Shown one piece after another: positions 27,001 through 48,000 of a DNA stretch of 64,000 nt. Source of the DNA: an uncultured Gemmatimonadaceae bacterium (GTDB lineage: Bacteria; Gemmatimonadota; Gemmatimonadetes; Gemmatimonadales; Gemmatimonadaceae); the NCBI GenBank assembly GCA_963790305.1, contig CAWBOC010000005.1, positions 352,001-416,000 on the forward strand. The letters are read 5' to 3'. A program made the position numbers. Each line of letters starts with the position of its first letter. The first letter of the stretch is position 1.

Positions 27001-30000
27001 TACCCCGGGCGCGCTACTCGTTAGGGGGAACGGTCGGTCGACGGCTGAATACCACCGTCAGTCGCGTCGTGCCTTGCGCGATCATGGCAGGCTCCCACCC
27101 GCCACGGCTGCGCTCATTGAGGAGATCGGTGAGGGCATCCTCATCCTCCTGCATGTGCCGCGTGAGCTTGAGGATGACCGCCTGATATTCGTTCATGGCC
27201 GGGAAGCTACTTCCGGCGCCGGGTAGCGGGTAGACCGCGCCGTCGGCCATAATGGGATAACTCCCGAAGGCTCTCGTTTGGCAATCCTGGCTCTCGCAAT
27301 GGACACTGCGCCCGCGTTTCCCACCCTTTCTATCACGCGGCATCCGCTCATTCAGCACAAGCTGACGATCCTCCGTGACCGGCGGACGCCGACGAAGATC
27401 TTCAAGGAGCTCGTCGATGAGATTGCCATGCTGATGGCCTACGAGGCGACGAGTGGCCTTCAGCTCGAAGCGGTCCCCGTCGAAACGCCCCTCGAGCCCG
27501 CGACAGGATGGCAAGTGAGCGGAAAAAAGCTCACGCTCGTGCCGATTCTTCGCGCGGGGCTTGGGATGGTCGAGGGGATCTTGCGTCTCGTGCCTGGGGC
27601 GCGCGTTGGGCACATCGGTCTCTACCGTGATCACGACACCCTGGAGCCGGTCGACTATTACTTCAAGGTCCCCAGCGACGCCGCAGAGCGTGATTTTTTC
27701 GTTCTCGACCCCATGCTCGCCACCGGCGGCAGCGCCGCGGCGGCGGTGACCTCACTCAAAAGGGCAGGCGCGACGAGAATTCGCTTTCTCTGTCTCGTGG
27801 CCGCACCCGAGGGCGTGAAGCGACTCGCGAAGACACACCCTGACGTGCCCGTCTACTGCGCTGCGCTCGATCGCGAGCTCAACACGCACGGGTACATCCT
27901 GCCAGGCCTTGGGGACGCGGGCGACCGTCTTTTTGGGACGCGCTAGAACGGGAGGAGAGAAGACGTCGGGCTGGGGAGGCGAGAAGACCCGGTAGCGAGA
28001 TCCACCTGCGAGGTAACGTGCTCTCTCCTCGCTCCCAGCCCGACGCGTATTGCGGCCTGGATCAGCCGAACCACTCGCGTGGATAGTCGCGCTGCTGCCG
28101 CGCAGCGTCGAGAATCCACTGCTGCGTCTCGGCATTCGTAAGCTCATTGCTCACGCGGTCGAACCACTCGTTCGCCTGCGCGTTGTCGCCGACACGCCGC
28201 CACAGCTCGCCGACGAGATAGGTCAGGACTGCGCGCTCATCGCGATCCACGCCATCGTACGTCGACAGTGCCTTCTCGAACATCCACGCTGCCTGACGAC
28301 GGAAATAGCGTTCCGCTTCGATGTCGCCTTCGTCGACGCAGCACCACGCGGCACGCAGCAGCAGGTCGGCAACCCGACGTGGTTCCGATCCCTGCCAGAG
28401 GGCAACCTTGGCGGCGAACTCGTATTTGTCGGATCCGCCAACGGGTCCTGACGAGAGCTTGGGCGCCAGCTCATCCCACACGTGTTCCTTTAGAATTGGG
28501 CTGACGTCGGTCTCCTCGGTGAAGTCCCGCTCACTTCCCGAGTACCCACACCGCGAGCATGTGTGGATGAAGAACGGCAGCGGCTGTGCGCCAGCCGCCC
28601 GCTCATGAAAATCGGTGCGTTTTCCACCAAATGAATTGGTGGAGATGACGGCCTGTGAATTGAACCGATTGTAGCAAATCGGACAGGCTAGCTCTATTTG
28701 TCGCAGCGTTGTCATTTGGCCTCTGGCCTCTCGCTAACCCCCGCTGCGGCCTGTATTGAAAATCGCGTGCCACGGCAACTGTTCCCCTTGTTGGTGTCGA
28801 CAGGGGCTGGTATCTTGCCGCCCGGTTGACCCTCCCTCCGCCGACAGCTTTCCCGCGTTCCGGCACTGATGCTGATCAATCTGCTGCCTGACTTTTTCGC
28901 GGTGCTGAGCGCCAGCGATCGCGTGGCCGCGTACCAGCACTATTACTCCACGCATCGCAGAATTCTCGAGCCGTATTGGCACAACTACGTCATCGATCCG
29001 GAAGGACCGCATTTCCTCGATGTCGTTCGATCGACGGTCCACGCCGACCGTGACGACCTCCGAACCATGTTGGAGCGCACGGACGTCGAGGCGCTCGCCC
29101 GTGAGGCCGAGGCCCGGTGCACCAAGCTCCTCGCGATAGACGTCGAGATCGACACGGTGCTCATGGTCGGTGTCGGGGCTGCGAATGCCGGAGAGCTCGT
29201 CACCGAAAATCGCGGAATTGCCTTCGTGTGCCTCGAGCATTTCACCAGCACCCAGAATCCGGACACGCAGGGGCTTGGGCTGGATCCGGAGGTCATTCCA
29301 CTCTGGCTCGCCCACGAAATCGCGCATTGTGTTCGGTACACCTCACCAAGTAGCCGAAGTGAGATGAAGGCACTCATCGATGACGTGAACGGCTACTACT
29401 CGTACTGGGAGACCGGCCGGCGTGCGACGCTGCGAGAGCTCGTGCTCAATGAGGGGCTCGCCGTCGAAACCGCCCGAGCCATCAGCCCGGGGCATGCCGA
29501 ATGGGAATACTTCGGGTACGCACGCCGCCAGTACGCTCGAGTTCGCGAGATGGAGCCCCTCCTCGTACGTGCCATCGCCGAGGATCTCGATCGAACCGGC
29601 CTGGGGCTGCGGCTGAAGTACCTCTCGGGCGGGATGAGTGATAGCGCTCGCGCCCTCGACGATCGGCACGTCATCCCGGAACGCGCCGGATACTACCTCG
29701 GCGCTCGAATGGTGGAGCCGGCAATCGCCGCACGGGGGCTTGAGTGGGCAGTGCGGGCAAGTGCGCGCGAGCTCGGCGAATCCAGCCGGAGCATGATTGC
29801 GGGCGCCAGTGCCTGACTCAGGCGCCTAACGGCGGCCGCTACTTGCCGACACAGAACGTCGAGAAGACGCGTCCCAGAACGTCCTCGACATCAATCGATC
29901 CGATCAGCTCGGCGAGGTGATGGGCCGCCTCGCGCAGATGAATGGCAGCCACCGAGCTTGGCGGATCGTTCATTTCCCATGCGTCACGGAATGCGGAGAG

Positions 30001-45000: not shown

Positions 45001-48000
45001 TGAAGCACGCGCCTCGGCATGGATGACGTTCTGGCGCGAGACAGACCCCGATCCCCAGACGACTGAGCACGAGGCGCTTCGCGACTATTTCCGGCGTCTC
45101 GTGACGGTGAATGAGCGGTTTCGCGAGGAGGCATCTGCTGGGTGGTTGACCGAGCGGGGCAAGGTATTCATCACCCTCGGTGAGCCCGACCAGATTCTGG
45201 AGCAGGGCGATGTCGGAATCGGGAATCGCGGACGGCTTCAGATTTGGCAGTATCTGCAGCACCGGACACAGTTCGTGTTCGTCGACCAGAGCGGATTTGG
45301 GCGGTGGCGACTGACGCCAGCCAGTGAGGCCGAGTTCGAGTCGATCGCCATGCGCGTGCGCCGTCGCTGACCAACTCGATCGCGCAGAGCAAGGTCATCG
45401 CATGGCGTCCATGCGACGCGTCATCGTTGGTACGCTCGTCGCTCTGGCGGTCGCCGGCTGTATGGAGCCGGTGCCCACACCGGCTGAGGACGGTAATGTC
45501 CCAACACCCGGGACACCATCAGACTCTGCGGTTGTAGCGGCGAATACTCACCTTGCTCGCGGCAGGCCCTGGTATGCATACCAGGCTCTGCGTCCCGCCC
45601 TCGCGGATTCCACGCGCCGCACGCCCTCGGTTGTCTTCCTCGCCGCGACAGCAGCGAGCAGGTGGGGAGGATGGCGTGAGGTCGAACGACTCCTCAGCGG
45701 AGCGGACTGGGCTGATTCGCTCTTCAACGGGGAAGGCCGTGTTCTCCTGATACGAGCGGCGCTGGAGCGCGACGCGGATTCTCTCGCCGCCGCGCGCGCG
45801 GCGCTGGCTGTGGAATTCGCACGGGACCGCACTGCTCGCGGAGAGCGTCTGGTACTGCTCGCACGAGCCCTCGATCGACGACACCGCCTCGACTCATCTC
45901 GCGCGACCTACCTGCGCGCTGCGGCGGACTTGCCCGACCTGCAGGACTGGCTCGTGCTGCGGGCTGCAGGAGTTACGCCTTTGCGTGCGCGCCGAGATTC
46001 GATCTACGAGCTTCTTTCCACCGACGCTGGCCGAGCGCGTGTTTCTCGTCTCGAGGCATCGACGCGTGAGCGGCATGGTGACATTGCGGGTGCTGCGAGC
46101 GCTTACGATCGCATGGGCGATTCGCTCTCGGCGATGCGCCTGCGACTTGCGCGCGCACGTGGGGCAACGCGTCTTGCCTTACGGCGTCGGCTCATGTCAA
46201 TCGTTCGTGCCGGCAACAGCTATGAGGCTCAGCGAGCCGTCGAGATCCTCGACGATGCAGGCGTTCGCCTCAGCCGCACTGAAGAGCTCACGGTCGCGCG
46301 AATGGCGGGCGCACGCGGTCTCTGGAGTCGCGCCGCGACCGCATACGGTCGTGCCCTGCGTCAGTCCGCGCTCAGCGCGGCGGACCGATACGCGTACGGG
46401 ATCGCGCTCATTCGAATCGGCCGCGACGGTAGCGCCGCCCGCATTCTGGCACGGATCCAGGCCCCGTCACCTCTCGTCCCCGCCGCATCCTATCAACGAG
46501 CGAGAGCACTTCTCGGGGCTCGGCAATCCCGTAGCGCTCGAACCGTCTTGCGCGAGCTCGTTCGTCGTCACCCGCGCGACACGCTTGCTGGAGCGGCGCT
46601 TGTCCTCCTCGCCGATCTCGCGATGGATGAACGGCGCGATGCAGATGCGCGGAGTGCGCTCAGGCAGGCATACACCAAGTTTCCCAGTAGCAGTCACGCG
46701 GCCCAGGCTCGCTTCCGCGCGGCTGTGCTCGCCTTTGCCGCCGGGCAGCATCGGACTGCCGCCAATGAGCTCGACTCGCTCCTCGCACTTCACCCGAGCG
46801 CGGATGACGGCATGGCTGCGCGCTATTGGATGGGCCGTGCGCTGCTTGCGATTGGTGATACCGTTACTGCCATGGCGCGATGGCGGACCGTCGCCGCTGA
46901 ATACCCGTTGTCGTACTACGGGATGCTCGCTGCCGAGCGGCTCGGTGAGCGGCCGTGGGCGCCAGAGCTCGTTCCGGATTCCTTCGAAGAAATCGAGGAT
47001 CTCACGGAGGCCATGGCTCGGGTCGACCACCTCGAGAAGCTTGGCATGGACAGCGAGGCGCGGGCCGAGCTGGAAGCCCTCGGCGACGCCGCTGATTCAA
47101 GCACGGCGCGGCTGCTCACGACTGCCTACCTGATGCGAGAACACGGACTCGTGGCGCGAGCGGTTCAACTCGGGTGGCGCGCGATCCGGGCCTCCCCATC
47201 AGCCGACGCGCGCGCGTACCGACTCGTGTATCCGATCGTACATCGTGAGGCGATCATTCTGGAGTCCCGGCGTCGCAACCTCGACCCGGCATTGGTCGCC
47301 GCGATCATACGTCAGGAATCGGGGTTCAACCCGCGGGCCACCTCGAGCGCAGGAGCACGAGGCCTCATGCAGATGATGCCGTCCGTCGGGCGCGCGGTGG
47401 CGAGAAGCGTCGATGTTCCGGAATGGCGTCCCGATCTGCTGTATCAGCCGGACATCAACCTGCAGCTTGGGATCAGGCACCTCGAAGCATTCATTTCCCG
47501 ATACGAAGCCCCATACGCCCTCGCGGCGTACAACGCCGGTGAATCACGTCTCGTACGATGGCTGCGGCGACCGGGCGCCCGGGATCCCGAGCTCTTCGTG
47601 GAACGGATTCCCTTTACCGAGACGCGCGATTACGTCCGAATCGTACTCCGCAATCGGGCCATGTATCGGGCGCTGTACCACTGGTGAGCGTCGGCTCGAG
47701 CGCGGAGGACGCATTGCCCGCACCAGAGCCCAACGCCACGCTCTCTTTCCGACGGGAGCTCACCCGCAAAGCACTCCATCTGTTGGCGACGGTCATACCG
47801 GCAAGCTACGCCGCAGGTGTATCGAGGACGGTGGTGGTAGGAGTGCTGGTGTTTGCGCTAGCCGTGGCGCTGGCCGTCGAGATTGCCCGATACCGAAACC
47901 TCCGTGCCCGCACCGTATTCGACGCTGCTCTAGGTAGCCTGCTGCGTGAGCACGAGTGGCGCGGCCCGTCGGGTGCCACCTGGCTGATCCTTGCCCTTCT

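What a model noticed while it worked through the whole genome (the two positions that open the first line are those of the whole stretch)
29839..47684. V-shaped A+T trough at synonymous sites centred on the replication origin
G+C at four-fold degenerate sites falls from the genome norm of 0.81 to 0.43 at dnaA-dnaN and climbs back over about 12-15 kb on each side, at the GC-skew switch. dnaN and dnaA have the lowest GC3 of all annotated genes. The trough is lineage-specific, which suggests a local mutational or repair regime at oriC rather than foreign DNA.
Evidence so far: GC3 ranking of 2663 genes: dnaN 0.46, dnaA 0.56, mean 0.81; 3-kb bins 0.75-0.67-0.60-0.43-0.56-0.66-0.67-0.72-0.77, both A and T rise. 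dnaA GC3 0.48-0.62 in all 6 genus genomes and in G010, G016, G009, against 0.74-0.97 in the other 17 of 26; profiles call 126. DnaN 93-99% identical within genus while four-fold sites differ at 0.55-0.67 against 0.22-0.50 for control genes.
(Added by a program. Inside this text positions count along the whole contig: contig position 352,001 is position 1 of the stretch shown here. "Call 12" and the like, gene names such as g00115 and contig names such as C1 are that model's own, and its searches are not shown. The text may have been shortened before it was handed on; [...] marks where a part breaks off. The agent that wrote the report below was given it as the finding of a first reader that could run no searches.)

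Follow-up and report, generated by a model that had tools for sequence, protein, structure and literature searches.

The report
Fast-mutating zone at bacterial replication origin
In this bacterium and several related lineages, the DNA around the point where chromosome copying starts changes two to four times faster than the rest of the genome and has lost its G+C richness, the opposite of the usual finding that bacteria mutate least near the origin.

Summary
The trough is real. Four-fold G+C falls from 0.82 (genome) to 0.38 in dnaN; the three lowest of 2544 genes are dnaN, its neighbour and dnaA. The fitted centre (36.3 kb) falls on the origin unwinding motif between dnaA and dnaN (36123-36172). 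The decay is steep (4.5-7.5 kb), with a symmetric tail to about 150 kb.

New here: it is a rate effect. In seven genus genomes, substitutions at four-fold sites run about 2x (2-6.5 kb) to 3.6x or more (under 2 kb) faster. G:C>A:T rises about 5x and GC-neutral changes 2-3x. Loss of GC-biased gene conversion or selection alone is rejected (45-168 lnL). The rate excess tracks trough depth in 9 independent genome pairs (Spearman 0.85).

Deep troughs occur in 34 of 124 Gemmatimonadales loci, in several clades. None of 14 repair or replication gene families screened explains the distribution. The genome-wide word CGTTAGG partly co-occurs (13 of 34 versus 1 of 49).

Best reading: mutagenic replication initiation (0.6), cause inferred. 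Main rival: a recombination cold spot with early isolation (0.22). Ten literature searches found no description for a bacterial chromosome.

The parts
29839..47684 (.). Steep part of the A+T trough and fast-substitution zone; a weak tail runs beyond the window to about 150 kb on each arm
35998..36215 (.). oriC: dnaA-dnaN spacer at the trough centre (fitted centre 36263; profile range 35750-36750 before allowing for overdispersion)
36123..36172 (+). Unwinding module: DnaA-box-like TTCCACA (36123-36129), DnaA-trio-like run (36142-36156), AT tract (36163-36172)
   Evidence: a trio-like run by a loose pattern in 160 of 176 spacers examined; layout as described in PMC6669920; function inferred
34609..35997 (+). 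dnaA; GC4 0.50, A>T and C>G on the + strand
36216..37328 (+). dnaN; GC4 0.38, lowest of 2544 genes; protein 93-99% identical within the genus
37338..38213 (-). ORF without Pfam match (lipoprotein-like N-terminus, read by eye); GC4 0.45; only 71% identical between G004 and G008, where proteins beyond 7 kb average about 97%
38263..38647 (-). RNase P RNA (RF00010)
34283..34447 (-). rpmH (L34)
   Evidence: read by eye; the name is recalled, not from a search
33925..34224 (-). rnpA; GC4 0.43
32052..33686 (-). yidC; GC4 0.60
31219..32055 (-). Metallo-beta-lactamase-fold hydrolase; GC4 0.61
29839..31212 (-). mnmE; GC4 0.65
38703..39512 (-). ORF without Pfam match; GC4 0.58
39714..40592 (+). HTH_18 (AraC-type) regulator; GC4 0.57
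40616..41170 (-). Phosphoribosyltransferase; GC4 0.59
41238..42965 (+). Histidine kinase; GC4 0.59
43481..45370 (+). GWxTD-domain protein; GC4 0.70
45411..47687 (+). TPR plus SLT lytic transglycosylase; GC4 0.67

Best explanation
The first kilobases copied from oriC mutate faster than the rest of the chromosome, mostly C:G to T:A. This pulls the local equilibrium from about 0.82 towards 0.3-0.45 G+C and erases the genome's word and dinucleotide signature. Shown: the centre is the origin; substitution rates of several classes rise there; the excess fades with distance on both arms and tracks trough depth across lineages. Inferred: the excess is mutation. Most likely mechanism (about half of this confidence, not tested): newly launched forks often stall a few kb out, both unwound templates stay single-stranded and deaminate, and rescue involves low-fidelity resynthesis. 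A broad spread of stall distances would give the roughly 1/distance decay. Less likely variants with the same footprint: mismatch repair not yet effective behind young forks, a hand-over from an error-prone polymerase, or skewed dNTP pools at initiation.
For: The centre coincides with the unwinding motif, not with parS-like sites, which lie 14-20 kb right of dnaN in 8 relatives with and without troughs and about 30 kb away here. Seven-taxon likelihood fit: total rate 2.23, 1.36, 1.22, 0.75 at <2, 2-4, 4-6.5, 6.5-10 kb against 0.61 far. Fold change within 4 kb (site bootstrap 5-95%): G:C>A:T 5.0 (3.9-6.5), A<>T 2.8 (2.1-3.7), G<>C 1.9 (1.6-2.4), A:T>G:C 1.3 (1.1-1.7). Bias release alone is worse by 168, 74 and 45 lnL with gamma rates. 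At 2-7 kb the excess is multiplicative (young-branch factor 1.14 and 0.85) and specific to transitions (G:C>T:A x0-1.4). In shallow-trough clades the ratio stays mostly 1.3-2.0 over flank distances 0.12-0.62. Core/flank ratio in 9 independent pairs: 0.92 and 1.11 with little or no trough, 1.35-2.35 shallow, 3.7 and 4.2 deep; Spearman 0.85. A power law (exponent 1.0) or two exponentials (5 and 95 kb) beat one exponential by 37 and 45 lnL, overdispersion 1.75. Weak hint: among listed contig pieces 95% or more alike, those near the origin differ more in 3 of 4 runs (18/829 vs 3/403, 6/371 vs 15/1869, 31/984 vs 3/228; 0/637 vs 1/1113 in the fourth). Precedents: origin mutagenesis in humans (PMC9645720, abstract), Pol I gradient on ColE1 (PMC3167613, abstract), origin-focused damage from abortive initiation in E. 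coli (PMC4436877, passages and section 10).
Against: Within 2 kb the sites are near saturation and a model with extra time on tip branches fits better than a pure rate increase (by 9 lnL with gamma; 37 without). C>T and G>A are equal on the leading strand (0.66 vs 0.65), so a one-strand deamination signature is absent from the rates, although pooled composition of 34 trough loci shows more leading-strand C loss. Four pairs from trough clades show little or no excess: L219-L220 0.85, L123-L143 0.99, L127-L131 0.99, L131-L143 1.13; one pair without a trough shows 1.48 (L281-L285). No gene was found that explains which lineages have it. Substitution between species is not mutation. In E. coli, removal of stalled nascent DNA was reported to be non-mutagenic (PMC12651559, abstract and Discussion part 1), and Vibrio mutation rates are low near oriCI (10.1101/195818, passages).
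Confidence: 0.6

Rival explanations
1. Recombination cold spot. DNA at oriC is rarely replaced by homologous recombination, so it escapes GC-biased gene conversion and stops mixing between young species earlier, which makes it look both A+T-rich and more diverged. The uptake-tag-like word CGTTAGG would be a by-product of the same recombination elsewhere in the genome.
For: Bias release plus a uniform scale fits the core as well as the free model (0.5-1.9 lnL); release plus extra tip time fits it better by 9 lnL. The word is enriched in 13 of 34 deep-trough, 3 of 41 mild and 1 of 49 trough-less loci and thins near oriC (genus: 5 in 67 kb within 6 kb vs 95 in 298 kb at 20-60 kb). GC3 correlates with recombination in bacteria (PMC4450053, passages) and yeast centromere troughs were read this way (PMC2997560, passages).
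Against: Release alone is rejected. At 2-7 kb, release plus scale is worse by 11-12 lnL per bin and release plus added time by 11-18. The excess grows in proportion to distance between genomes rather than staying constant. 21 of 34 deep-trough loci lack the word and no substitute word stood out in 20-80 kb per genome. Word loss is equally expected from faster mutation.
Confidence: 0.22
2. Repair deficit in a protein-coated or anchored origin domain (DnaA, ParB or SMC spreading, membrane tethering) rather than a fork-stage error.
For: Decay close to 1/distance resembles a polymer contact curve (the analogy is my inference). All dinucleotide biases flatten (CG 1.35 to 1.03, TA 0.46 to 0.73) and CTAG avoidance relaxes (0.50 to 0.78), as if a context-dependent repair were missing.
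Against: parS-like sites are off-centre and occur in genomes with and without troughs. There is no direct evidence for such a domain.
Confidence: 0.12
3. Selection for A+T near the origin (melting, bending) or for particular codons in dnaA and dnaN.
For: Origins need a local AT-rich element (PMC6669920, passages).
Against: The effect spans more than 15 genes on both strands and non-coding DNA. A:T>G:C rates do not fall and GC-neutral rates rise. atpA, atpD and glmS have GC4 0.85-0.92. Relatives with the same origin layout have no trough.
Confidence: 0.04
4. Foreign DNA or an assembly or binning artefact.
For: Other low-GC4 windows in this genome (C1, C13, C9) may be islands (not examined).
Against: Core genes in conserved order across the genus; a smooth gradient; recurrence in separate clades; independent public contigs 97-100% alike cover parts of the trough.
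Confidence: 0.02

Closest known systems
Mutational footprint of replication initiation at human origins (PMC9645720; abstract seen)
   Same: Mutation excess centred on the initiation site, attributed to breaks and error-prone synthesis nearby.
   Different: Eukaryotic, many origins; here a single bacterial oriC, a gradient of kb to 100 kb, strong enough to reset base composition, and present in some lineages only.
Pol I mutation gradient downstream of the ColE1 origin (PMC3167613; abstract seen)
   Same: Error rate decays with distance from an origin as one polymerase is replaced by another.
   Different: Plasmid, engineered error-prone Pol I, about 1.3 kb; here chromosomal, natural, two-sided, DnaA-type origin.
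GC3 troughs at yeast centromeres (PMC2997560; abstract and passages seen)
   Same: One V-shaped GC3 trough per chromosome at a functional landmark, deep in some lineages and absent in others.
   Different: 100-300 kb wide and read as suppressed recombination and gBGC; here the steep part is about 20 kb, centred on oriC rather than parS, and bias release alone is rejected.
Wave-like mutation rates along bacterial replichores (10.1101/195818; passages seen)
   Same: Mirror symmetry about the origin.
   Different: Periods of 0.8-1.6 Mb with a low at oriC; synonymous rates generally rise late in replication. Here the maximum is at oriC and the scale is a hundred times smaller.
Origin-focused damage in thymineless death (PMC4436877; passages and section 10 seen) and replication reset (PMC12651559; abstract and Discussion part 1 seen)
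   Same: Abortive or stalled replication singles out origin-proximal DNA.
   Different: Acute laboratory states in E. coli; reset is reported as non-mutagenic; no evolutionary footprint was described in what I read.

Membership tests
Initiation-linked mutagenesis (human origins, ColE1) | Excess centred on the initiation site | tested here: met
   Fitted centre 36263, unwinding motif 36123-36172; the origin is assigned by motif, not by experiment
Initiation-linked mutagenesis (human origins, ColE1) | Rate rises in classes blind to GC bias and decays with distance | tested here: met
   A<>T x2.8 and G<>C x1.9 within 4 kb; x1.1-1.2 at 6.5-15 kb
Initiation-linked mutagenesis (human origins, ColE1) | Excess shown for new mutations, with the polymerase or break identified | not testable with these tools
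   Only between-species substitutions; no raw reads were available
gBGC cold-spot trough (yeast centromere type) | S>W up, W>S down, GC-neutral rates unchanged | tested here: not met
   W>S unchanged or up, neutral classes up; 45-168 lnL worse
gBGC cold-spot trough (yeast centromere type) | Centred on the segregation locus (parS) | tested here: not met
   parS-like sites 14-30 kb off-centre, regardless of trough; consensus recalled
gBGC cold-spot trough (yeast centromere type) | Locally reduced recombination | not tested
   Needs within-species genomes
Single-strand cytosine deamination gradient | C>T dominates the excess | tested here: met
   G:C>A:T has the largest well-determined fold change, x3.7-6.6 within 6.5 kb
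Single-strand cytosine deamination gradient | One-strand bias that flips at the origin | tested here: inconclusive
   Strand-asymmetric model better by 56 lnL within 3 kb and A/T skew flips near 36-37 kb, but C>T equals G>A in the rate fit
UV or CpG-methylation signature | C>T confined to dipyrimidine or CpG context | tested here: not met
   C>T near/far 0.75/0.13 after C, 1.10/0.20 after G, 0.31/0.10 after T; G>A up in all three contexts
Horizontally acquired island | Non-core genes, sharp edges, patchy presence | tested here: not met

The most novel reading that the evidence does not exclude
Several Gemmatimonadaceae lineages have a distinct, error-prone early phase of chromosome replication: forks leaving oriC mutate DNA at several times the normal rate and mature over about 5 kb, with a tail to about 100 kb. 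The trait has been gained or lost repeatedly, and in four lineages it goes with a genome-wide DNA word (CGTTAGG) that may mark the underlying DNA-processing system. Base composition alone would then map oriC to within a kilobase and record how replication starts in uncultured bacteria.
Probability: 0.35. Interest if true: 0.88.

Novelty: new variant of a known kind. Interest (0 to 1): 0.74.

Why it matters
It reverses the usual pattern of low mutation near oriC and places essential genes (dnaA, dnaN, yidC, rnpA) in the most mutable part of the chromosome. It is a natural experiment on what sets G+C in high-GC bacteria: in one genome the equilibrium falls from 0.82 to about 0.4 within a few kb, and close relatives with and without the trait exist for comparison. 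It gives a measurable read-out of replication initiation in a mostly uncultured phylum. It also has a practical side: composition-based binning may drop or misplace origin contigs (G002 and G007 gave no match for the region; two tiny dnaN contigs of trough-clade type sit in bins labelled as other phyla), and dnaA or dnaN synonymous distances overstate divergence in these lineages.

Tried and rejected
Gene-content screens, none separating trough from non-trough genomes. Wide screens: RecF (53 of 56 over the cut-off), RNase H (47 of 47), UDG (47 of 47, 1-4 copies), dUTPase (33 of 80 with any match; strong Dut-like hits in trough genomes G016 and G071, none in many trough-less genomes), ThyA (4 of 51), twin-DnaA paralogue (both groups), class I RNR small subunit (4 of 51), AddAB/RecB-type nuclease (37 of 80; present in trough genomes G010, G032, G063, G067, not found in trough-less G014, G023, G118), Ku (63 of 77). 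Five-genome screens only: DnaE copies, MutL, HhH-GPD, DinB/ImuB, NucS (0 of 5), DciA, MutM. dUTPase and AddAB looked promising on five genomes and failed on 80. Not screened: SMC, MutY separately, RecQ/RecJ, Mfd, photolyase, methyltransferases.

Other tests that led nowhere: ParB/parS centring rejected. UV and CpG contexts rejected. No substitute over-used word in word-less trough lineages (only 19-80 kb each, so weak). Read depth could not test re-replication because all four runs were contigs with small shares; no habitat claim is made from them. A single exponential and a box shape fit worse.

Controls: E. coli K-12 shows no dip at oriC (GC4 0.54-0.71 over 39 kb). Of 20 further genomes of the class, one just passes the 0.55 logit line (G114 0.60), two are near it (G109 0.54, G151 0.44) and none approaches this genus.

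Literature: ten searches found no report of such a trough at a bacterial oriC; the library lacks most subscription papers, and no supplements were read. Four look-ups of earlier scan findings on the trough itself returned nothing. Wider profiles and word counts for trough-less controls beyond 20 kb from the origin were not obtained, so the long tail is shown only for G000 and, to 40 kb, G010.
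Full report
Observation. I called genes on the whole assembly with an amino-acid model that ignores synonymous choice (3816 genes). G+C at four-fold sites (GC4) is 0.823 genome-wide. dnaN (0.38), the ORF at 37338-38213 (0.45) and dnaA (0.50) are the three lowest of 2544 genes of 200 aa or more, and the seven lowest of 2431 windows of 600 sites all lie in this region. The genes are the ordinary origin set: mnmE, yidC, rnpA, dnaA, dnaN and RNase P RNA. Non-coding DNA drops too (0.54-0.56 within 5 kb against 0.652), while amino-acid composition barely moves.

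Anatomy. An exponential fit puts the centre at 36263 (profile range 35750-36750, somewhat wider with overdispersion), depth 0.41, decay 4.5 kb left and 7.5 kb right; a box shape is 55 lnL worse. The dnaA-dnaN spacer carries a DnaA-box-like heptamer, a trio-like run and an AT tract at 36123-36172, the layout described for bacterial unwinding sites (PMC6669920, passages). A loose pattern finds a trio-like run in 160 of 176 spacers examined. The GC-skew minimum is vague (41.3 kb, 50.2 kb), while A/T skew at four-fold sites flips near 36-37 kb. GC4 stays slightly low far out on both arms: 0.787/0.777 at 20-40 kb, 0.802/0.797 at 40-80 kb, 0.814/0.816 at 80-150 kb, 0.828/0.825 beyond 250 kb. The deficits survive gene bootstrap, and a power law of exponent 1.0 or two exponentials (5 and 95 kb) fit better than one by 37 and 45 lnL at overdispersion 1.75. 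parS-like sites are not the centre (consensus recalled).

Distribution. The closest named relatives are Gemmatimonadaceae genomes. I scored core against flank GC4 in every locus with enough sites. Of 124 loci, after dropping 4 duplicates, one unpublished genome and the loci too short to score, 34 have a deep trough (logit depth 0.55 or more), 41 a mild one and 49 none. On a DnaN tree the deep ones fall in several groups: this genus (all 7 genomes with the region), G020 with L113-L216, G032, a graded clade L218-L257, a large clade around G019, G010 and G016. They are absent from the clade holding the records named Gemmatimonas, from G013/G027/G028 and from the two sister families. The tree rests on one gene, so the number of independent origins is uncertain. 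G009 is flat and low, not a trough. Width varies: G010 falls from 0.82 to 0.53 over about 35 kb, G032 recovers within 10 kb. Of 20 more genomes of the class only G114 (0.60), G109 (0.54) and G151 (0.44) dip mildly, and E. coli shows no dip. The unpublished genome G073 was among the loci and the genomes; no claim depends on it.

It is a rate effect. The two closest independent pairs differ at 0.18-0.23 of four-fold sites beyond 12 kb and at 0.53-0.58 at the origin. On a seven-taxon tree with branch lengths fixed from distant genes, the total rate is 2.23, 1.36, 1.22 and 0.75 at under 2, 2-4, 4-6.5 and 6.5-10 kb against 0.61 far away. Within 4 kb, G:C>A:T rises 5.0x (3.9-6.5), A<>T 2.8x (2.1-3.7), G<>C 1.9x (1.6-2.4) and A:T>G:C 1.3x (1.1-1.7); the two other transversion classes are poorly determined (site bootstrap, so intervals are optimistic). 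A model that only relaxes GC bias, as loss of gene conversion or of selection would, is worse by 168, 74 and 45 lnL in the three inner bins with gamma rates. Across 9 independent pairs, chosen from 13 usable, the core/flank distance ratio tracks trough depth (0.92 and 1.11; 1.35-2.35; 3.7 and 4.2; Spearman 0.85). In the wider list of 30 pairs, trough-less pairs mostly give 0.5-1.1, with one at 1.48; four trough-clade pairs give only 0.85-1.13. Protein divergence near the origin is tripled for G004-G008 (10.2% against 3.1%) and about equal to flanks in trough-less pairs.

Limits of that result. Within 2 kb the comparisons approach saturation, and extra time on tip branches fits better than a pure rate increase (9 lnL with gamma; 37 without). 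That is what earlier genetic isolation of the origin would give (idea recalled from work on fragmented speciation, not read). At 2-7 kb the excess is multiplicative and specific to transitions, which favours mutation. Pieces of public contigs from near-identical strains differ more near the origin in 3 of 4 runs, but only 31 records were listed, 883 pieces were not shown, and I used the 23 pieces at 95% or more, so this is a hint.

Spectrum. There is no dipyrimidine or CpG specificity. Dinucleotide biases flatten and CTAG avoidance relaxes. A strand-asymmetric model gains 56 lnL within 3 kb, but C>T and G>A are equal on the leading strand; pooled composition of 34 trough loci shows somewhat more loss of leading-strand C (dnaN zone C 0.44 to 0.22, G 0.42 to 0.32). 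Both strands are therefore affected.

Search for a cause. Fourteen repair, recombination and nucleotide-supply families that could differ were screened, plus NucS and the twin-DnaA paralogue; none separates the groups (seven were tested on five genomes only). Earlier scan notes on this genome describe an over-used word, CGTTAGGC. I confirmed 855 copies of the octamer and 1229 of the heptamer, none within -6.3 to +6.8 kb of oriC. The heptamer is enriched in 13 of 34 deep, 3 of 41 mild and 1 of 49 trough-less loci. These are about eight lineages, not 17 independent cases, and several trough lineages lack the word, so it is a lead only.

Mechanism. The best reading is mutagenic initiation (0.6). 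Within it I favour young forks that stall a few kb out, exposing both templates and needing low-fidelity rescue. This fits the centre, the two-armed heavy-tailed decay, the C>T excess on both strands and the added transversions; it is inference. Late onset of clamp-dependent mismatch repair (recalled, not read), polymerase hand-over as on ColE1 (PMC3167613, abstract) and dNTP imbalance remain open. Rivals are a recombination cold spot with early isolation (0.22), a repair-shielded origin domain (0.12), selection (0.04) and foreign DNA or artefact (0.02).

Relation to what is known. It works like the initiation footprint at human origins (PMC9645720, abstract) and looks like yeast centromere GC3 troughs (PMC2997560, passages), but fails the gene-conversion test that defines the usual reading of the latter. 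In bacteria the reported pattern is the opposite: rates are low near oriC on a scale of hundreds of kb (10.1101/195818, passages). Ten full-text searches found no description of this feature; most subscription journals are not covered, so informal prior notice remains possible.

Verdict. Real, recurrent and more than a compositional curiosity: an origin-centred zone of faster, A+T-biased substitution with a cause not yet shown. New variant of a known kind; interest 0.74.

Noticed in passing
G000 and genus relatives G001, G003, G004, G005, G006, G008: No match for dUTPase/dCTP deaminase (0 of 7) or for the AddAB/RecB-type nuclease domain (0 of 7); no ThyA in the 4 tested; one or two Ku genes in the 5 tested. 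How this genus resects DNA breaks and removes dUTP is open. Not found with these queries, not shown absent.
   Followed up: partly
window 29800-43000 (oriC -6.3 to +6.8 kb) and loci of G016, L218-L257, L250: The genome-wide word CGTTAGG is missing near oriC here and thins within 2 kb in other word-rich lineages; word-rich lineages nearly all have some trough.
   Followed up: partly
L229 and L236: dnaN contigs of 2.4 and 4.8 kb with low GC4 that fall inside the large trough clade on the DnaN tree but lie in bins labelled Acidobacteriota and Nitrospiraceae; probably misbinned because of the trough.
   Followed up: no
G005, G006, G008 origin contigs; G002, G007: Contigs break within about 2 kb of oriC in 3 of the 6 relatives that hold the region, and G002 and G007 (81% and 71% complete) gave no match for dnaA, dnaN or the flanks.
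   Followed up: no
G000:C9:48544-50170: Protein with two DnaA ATPase domains (40-44% identical to DnaA), here apparently split by a frame change; present in most of the family but not found in the G019 clade, G024, G025 or G086.
   Followed up: partly
G005:C44:288-11380: A second, about 70% identical, rearranged copy of window 17-30 kb; possibly contamination from a related organism or a duplication.
   Followed up: no
G010 origin, L373-L372: A much wider trough than in this genus: GC4 0.82-0.84 at -40 kb, 0.53 at the origin, 0.73 at +35 kb.
   Followed up: partly
G024 dnaA-dnaN spacer (L063): A run of 7-base repeats (TTAGCTG/CAGCTAA type) forming a long inverted repeat right after the AT tract.
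   Followed up: no
G012:C32:32301-33118: dnaN matches in two pieces, suggesting a frameshift or assembly error.
   Followed up: no
window 5382-7826 and 48708-51704: A mutS-like gene (named by its N-terminus from recall) and polA with its 3'-5' exonuclease domain flank the origin at about -29 kb and +13 kb.
   Followed up: no
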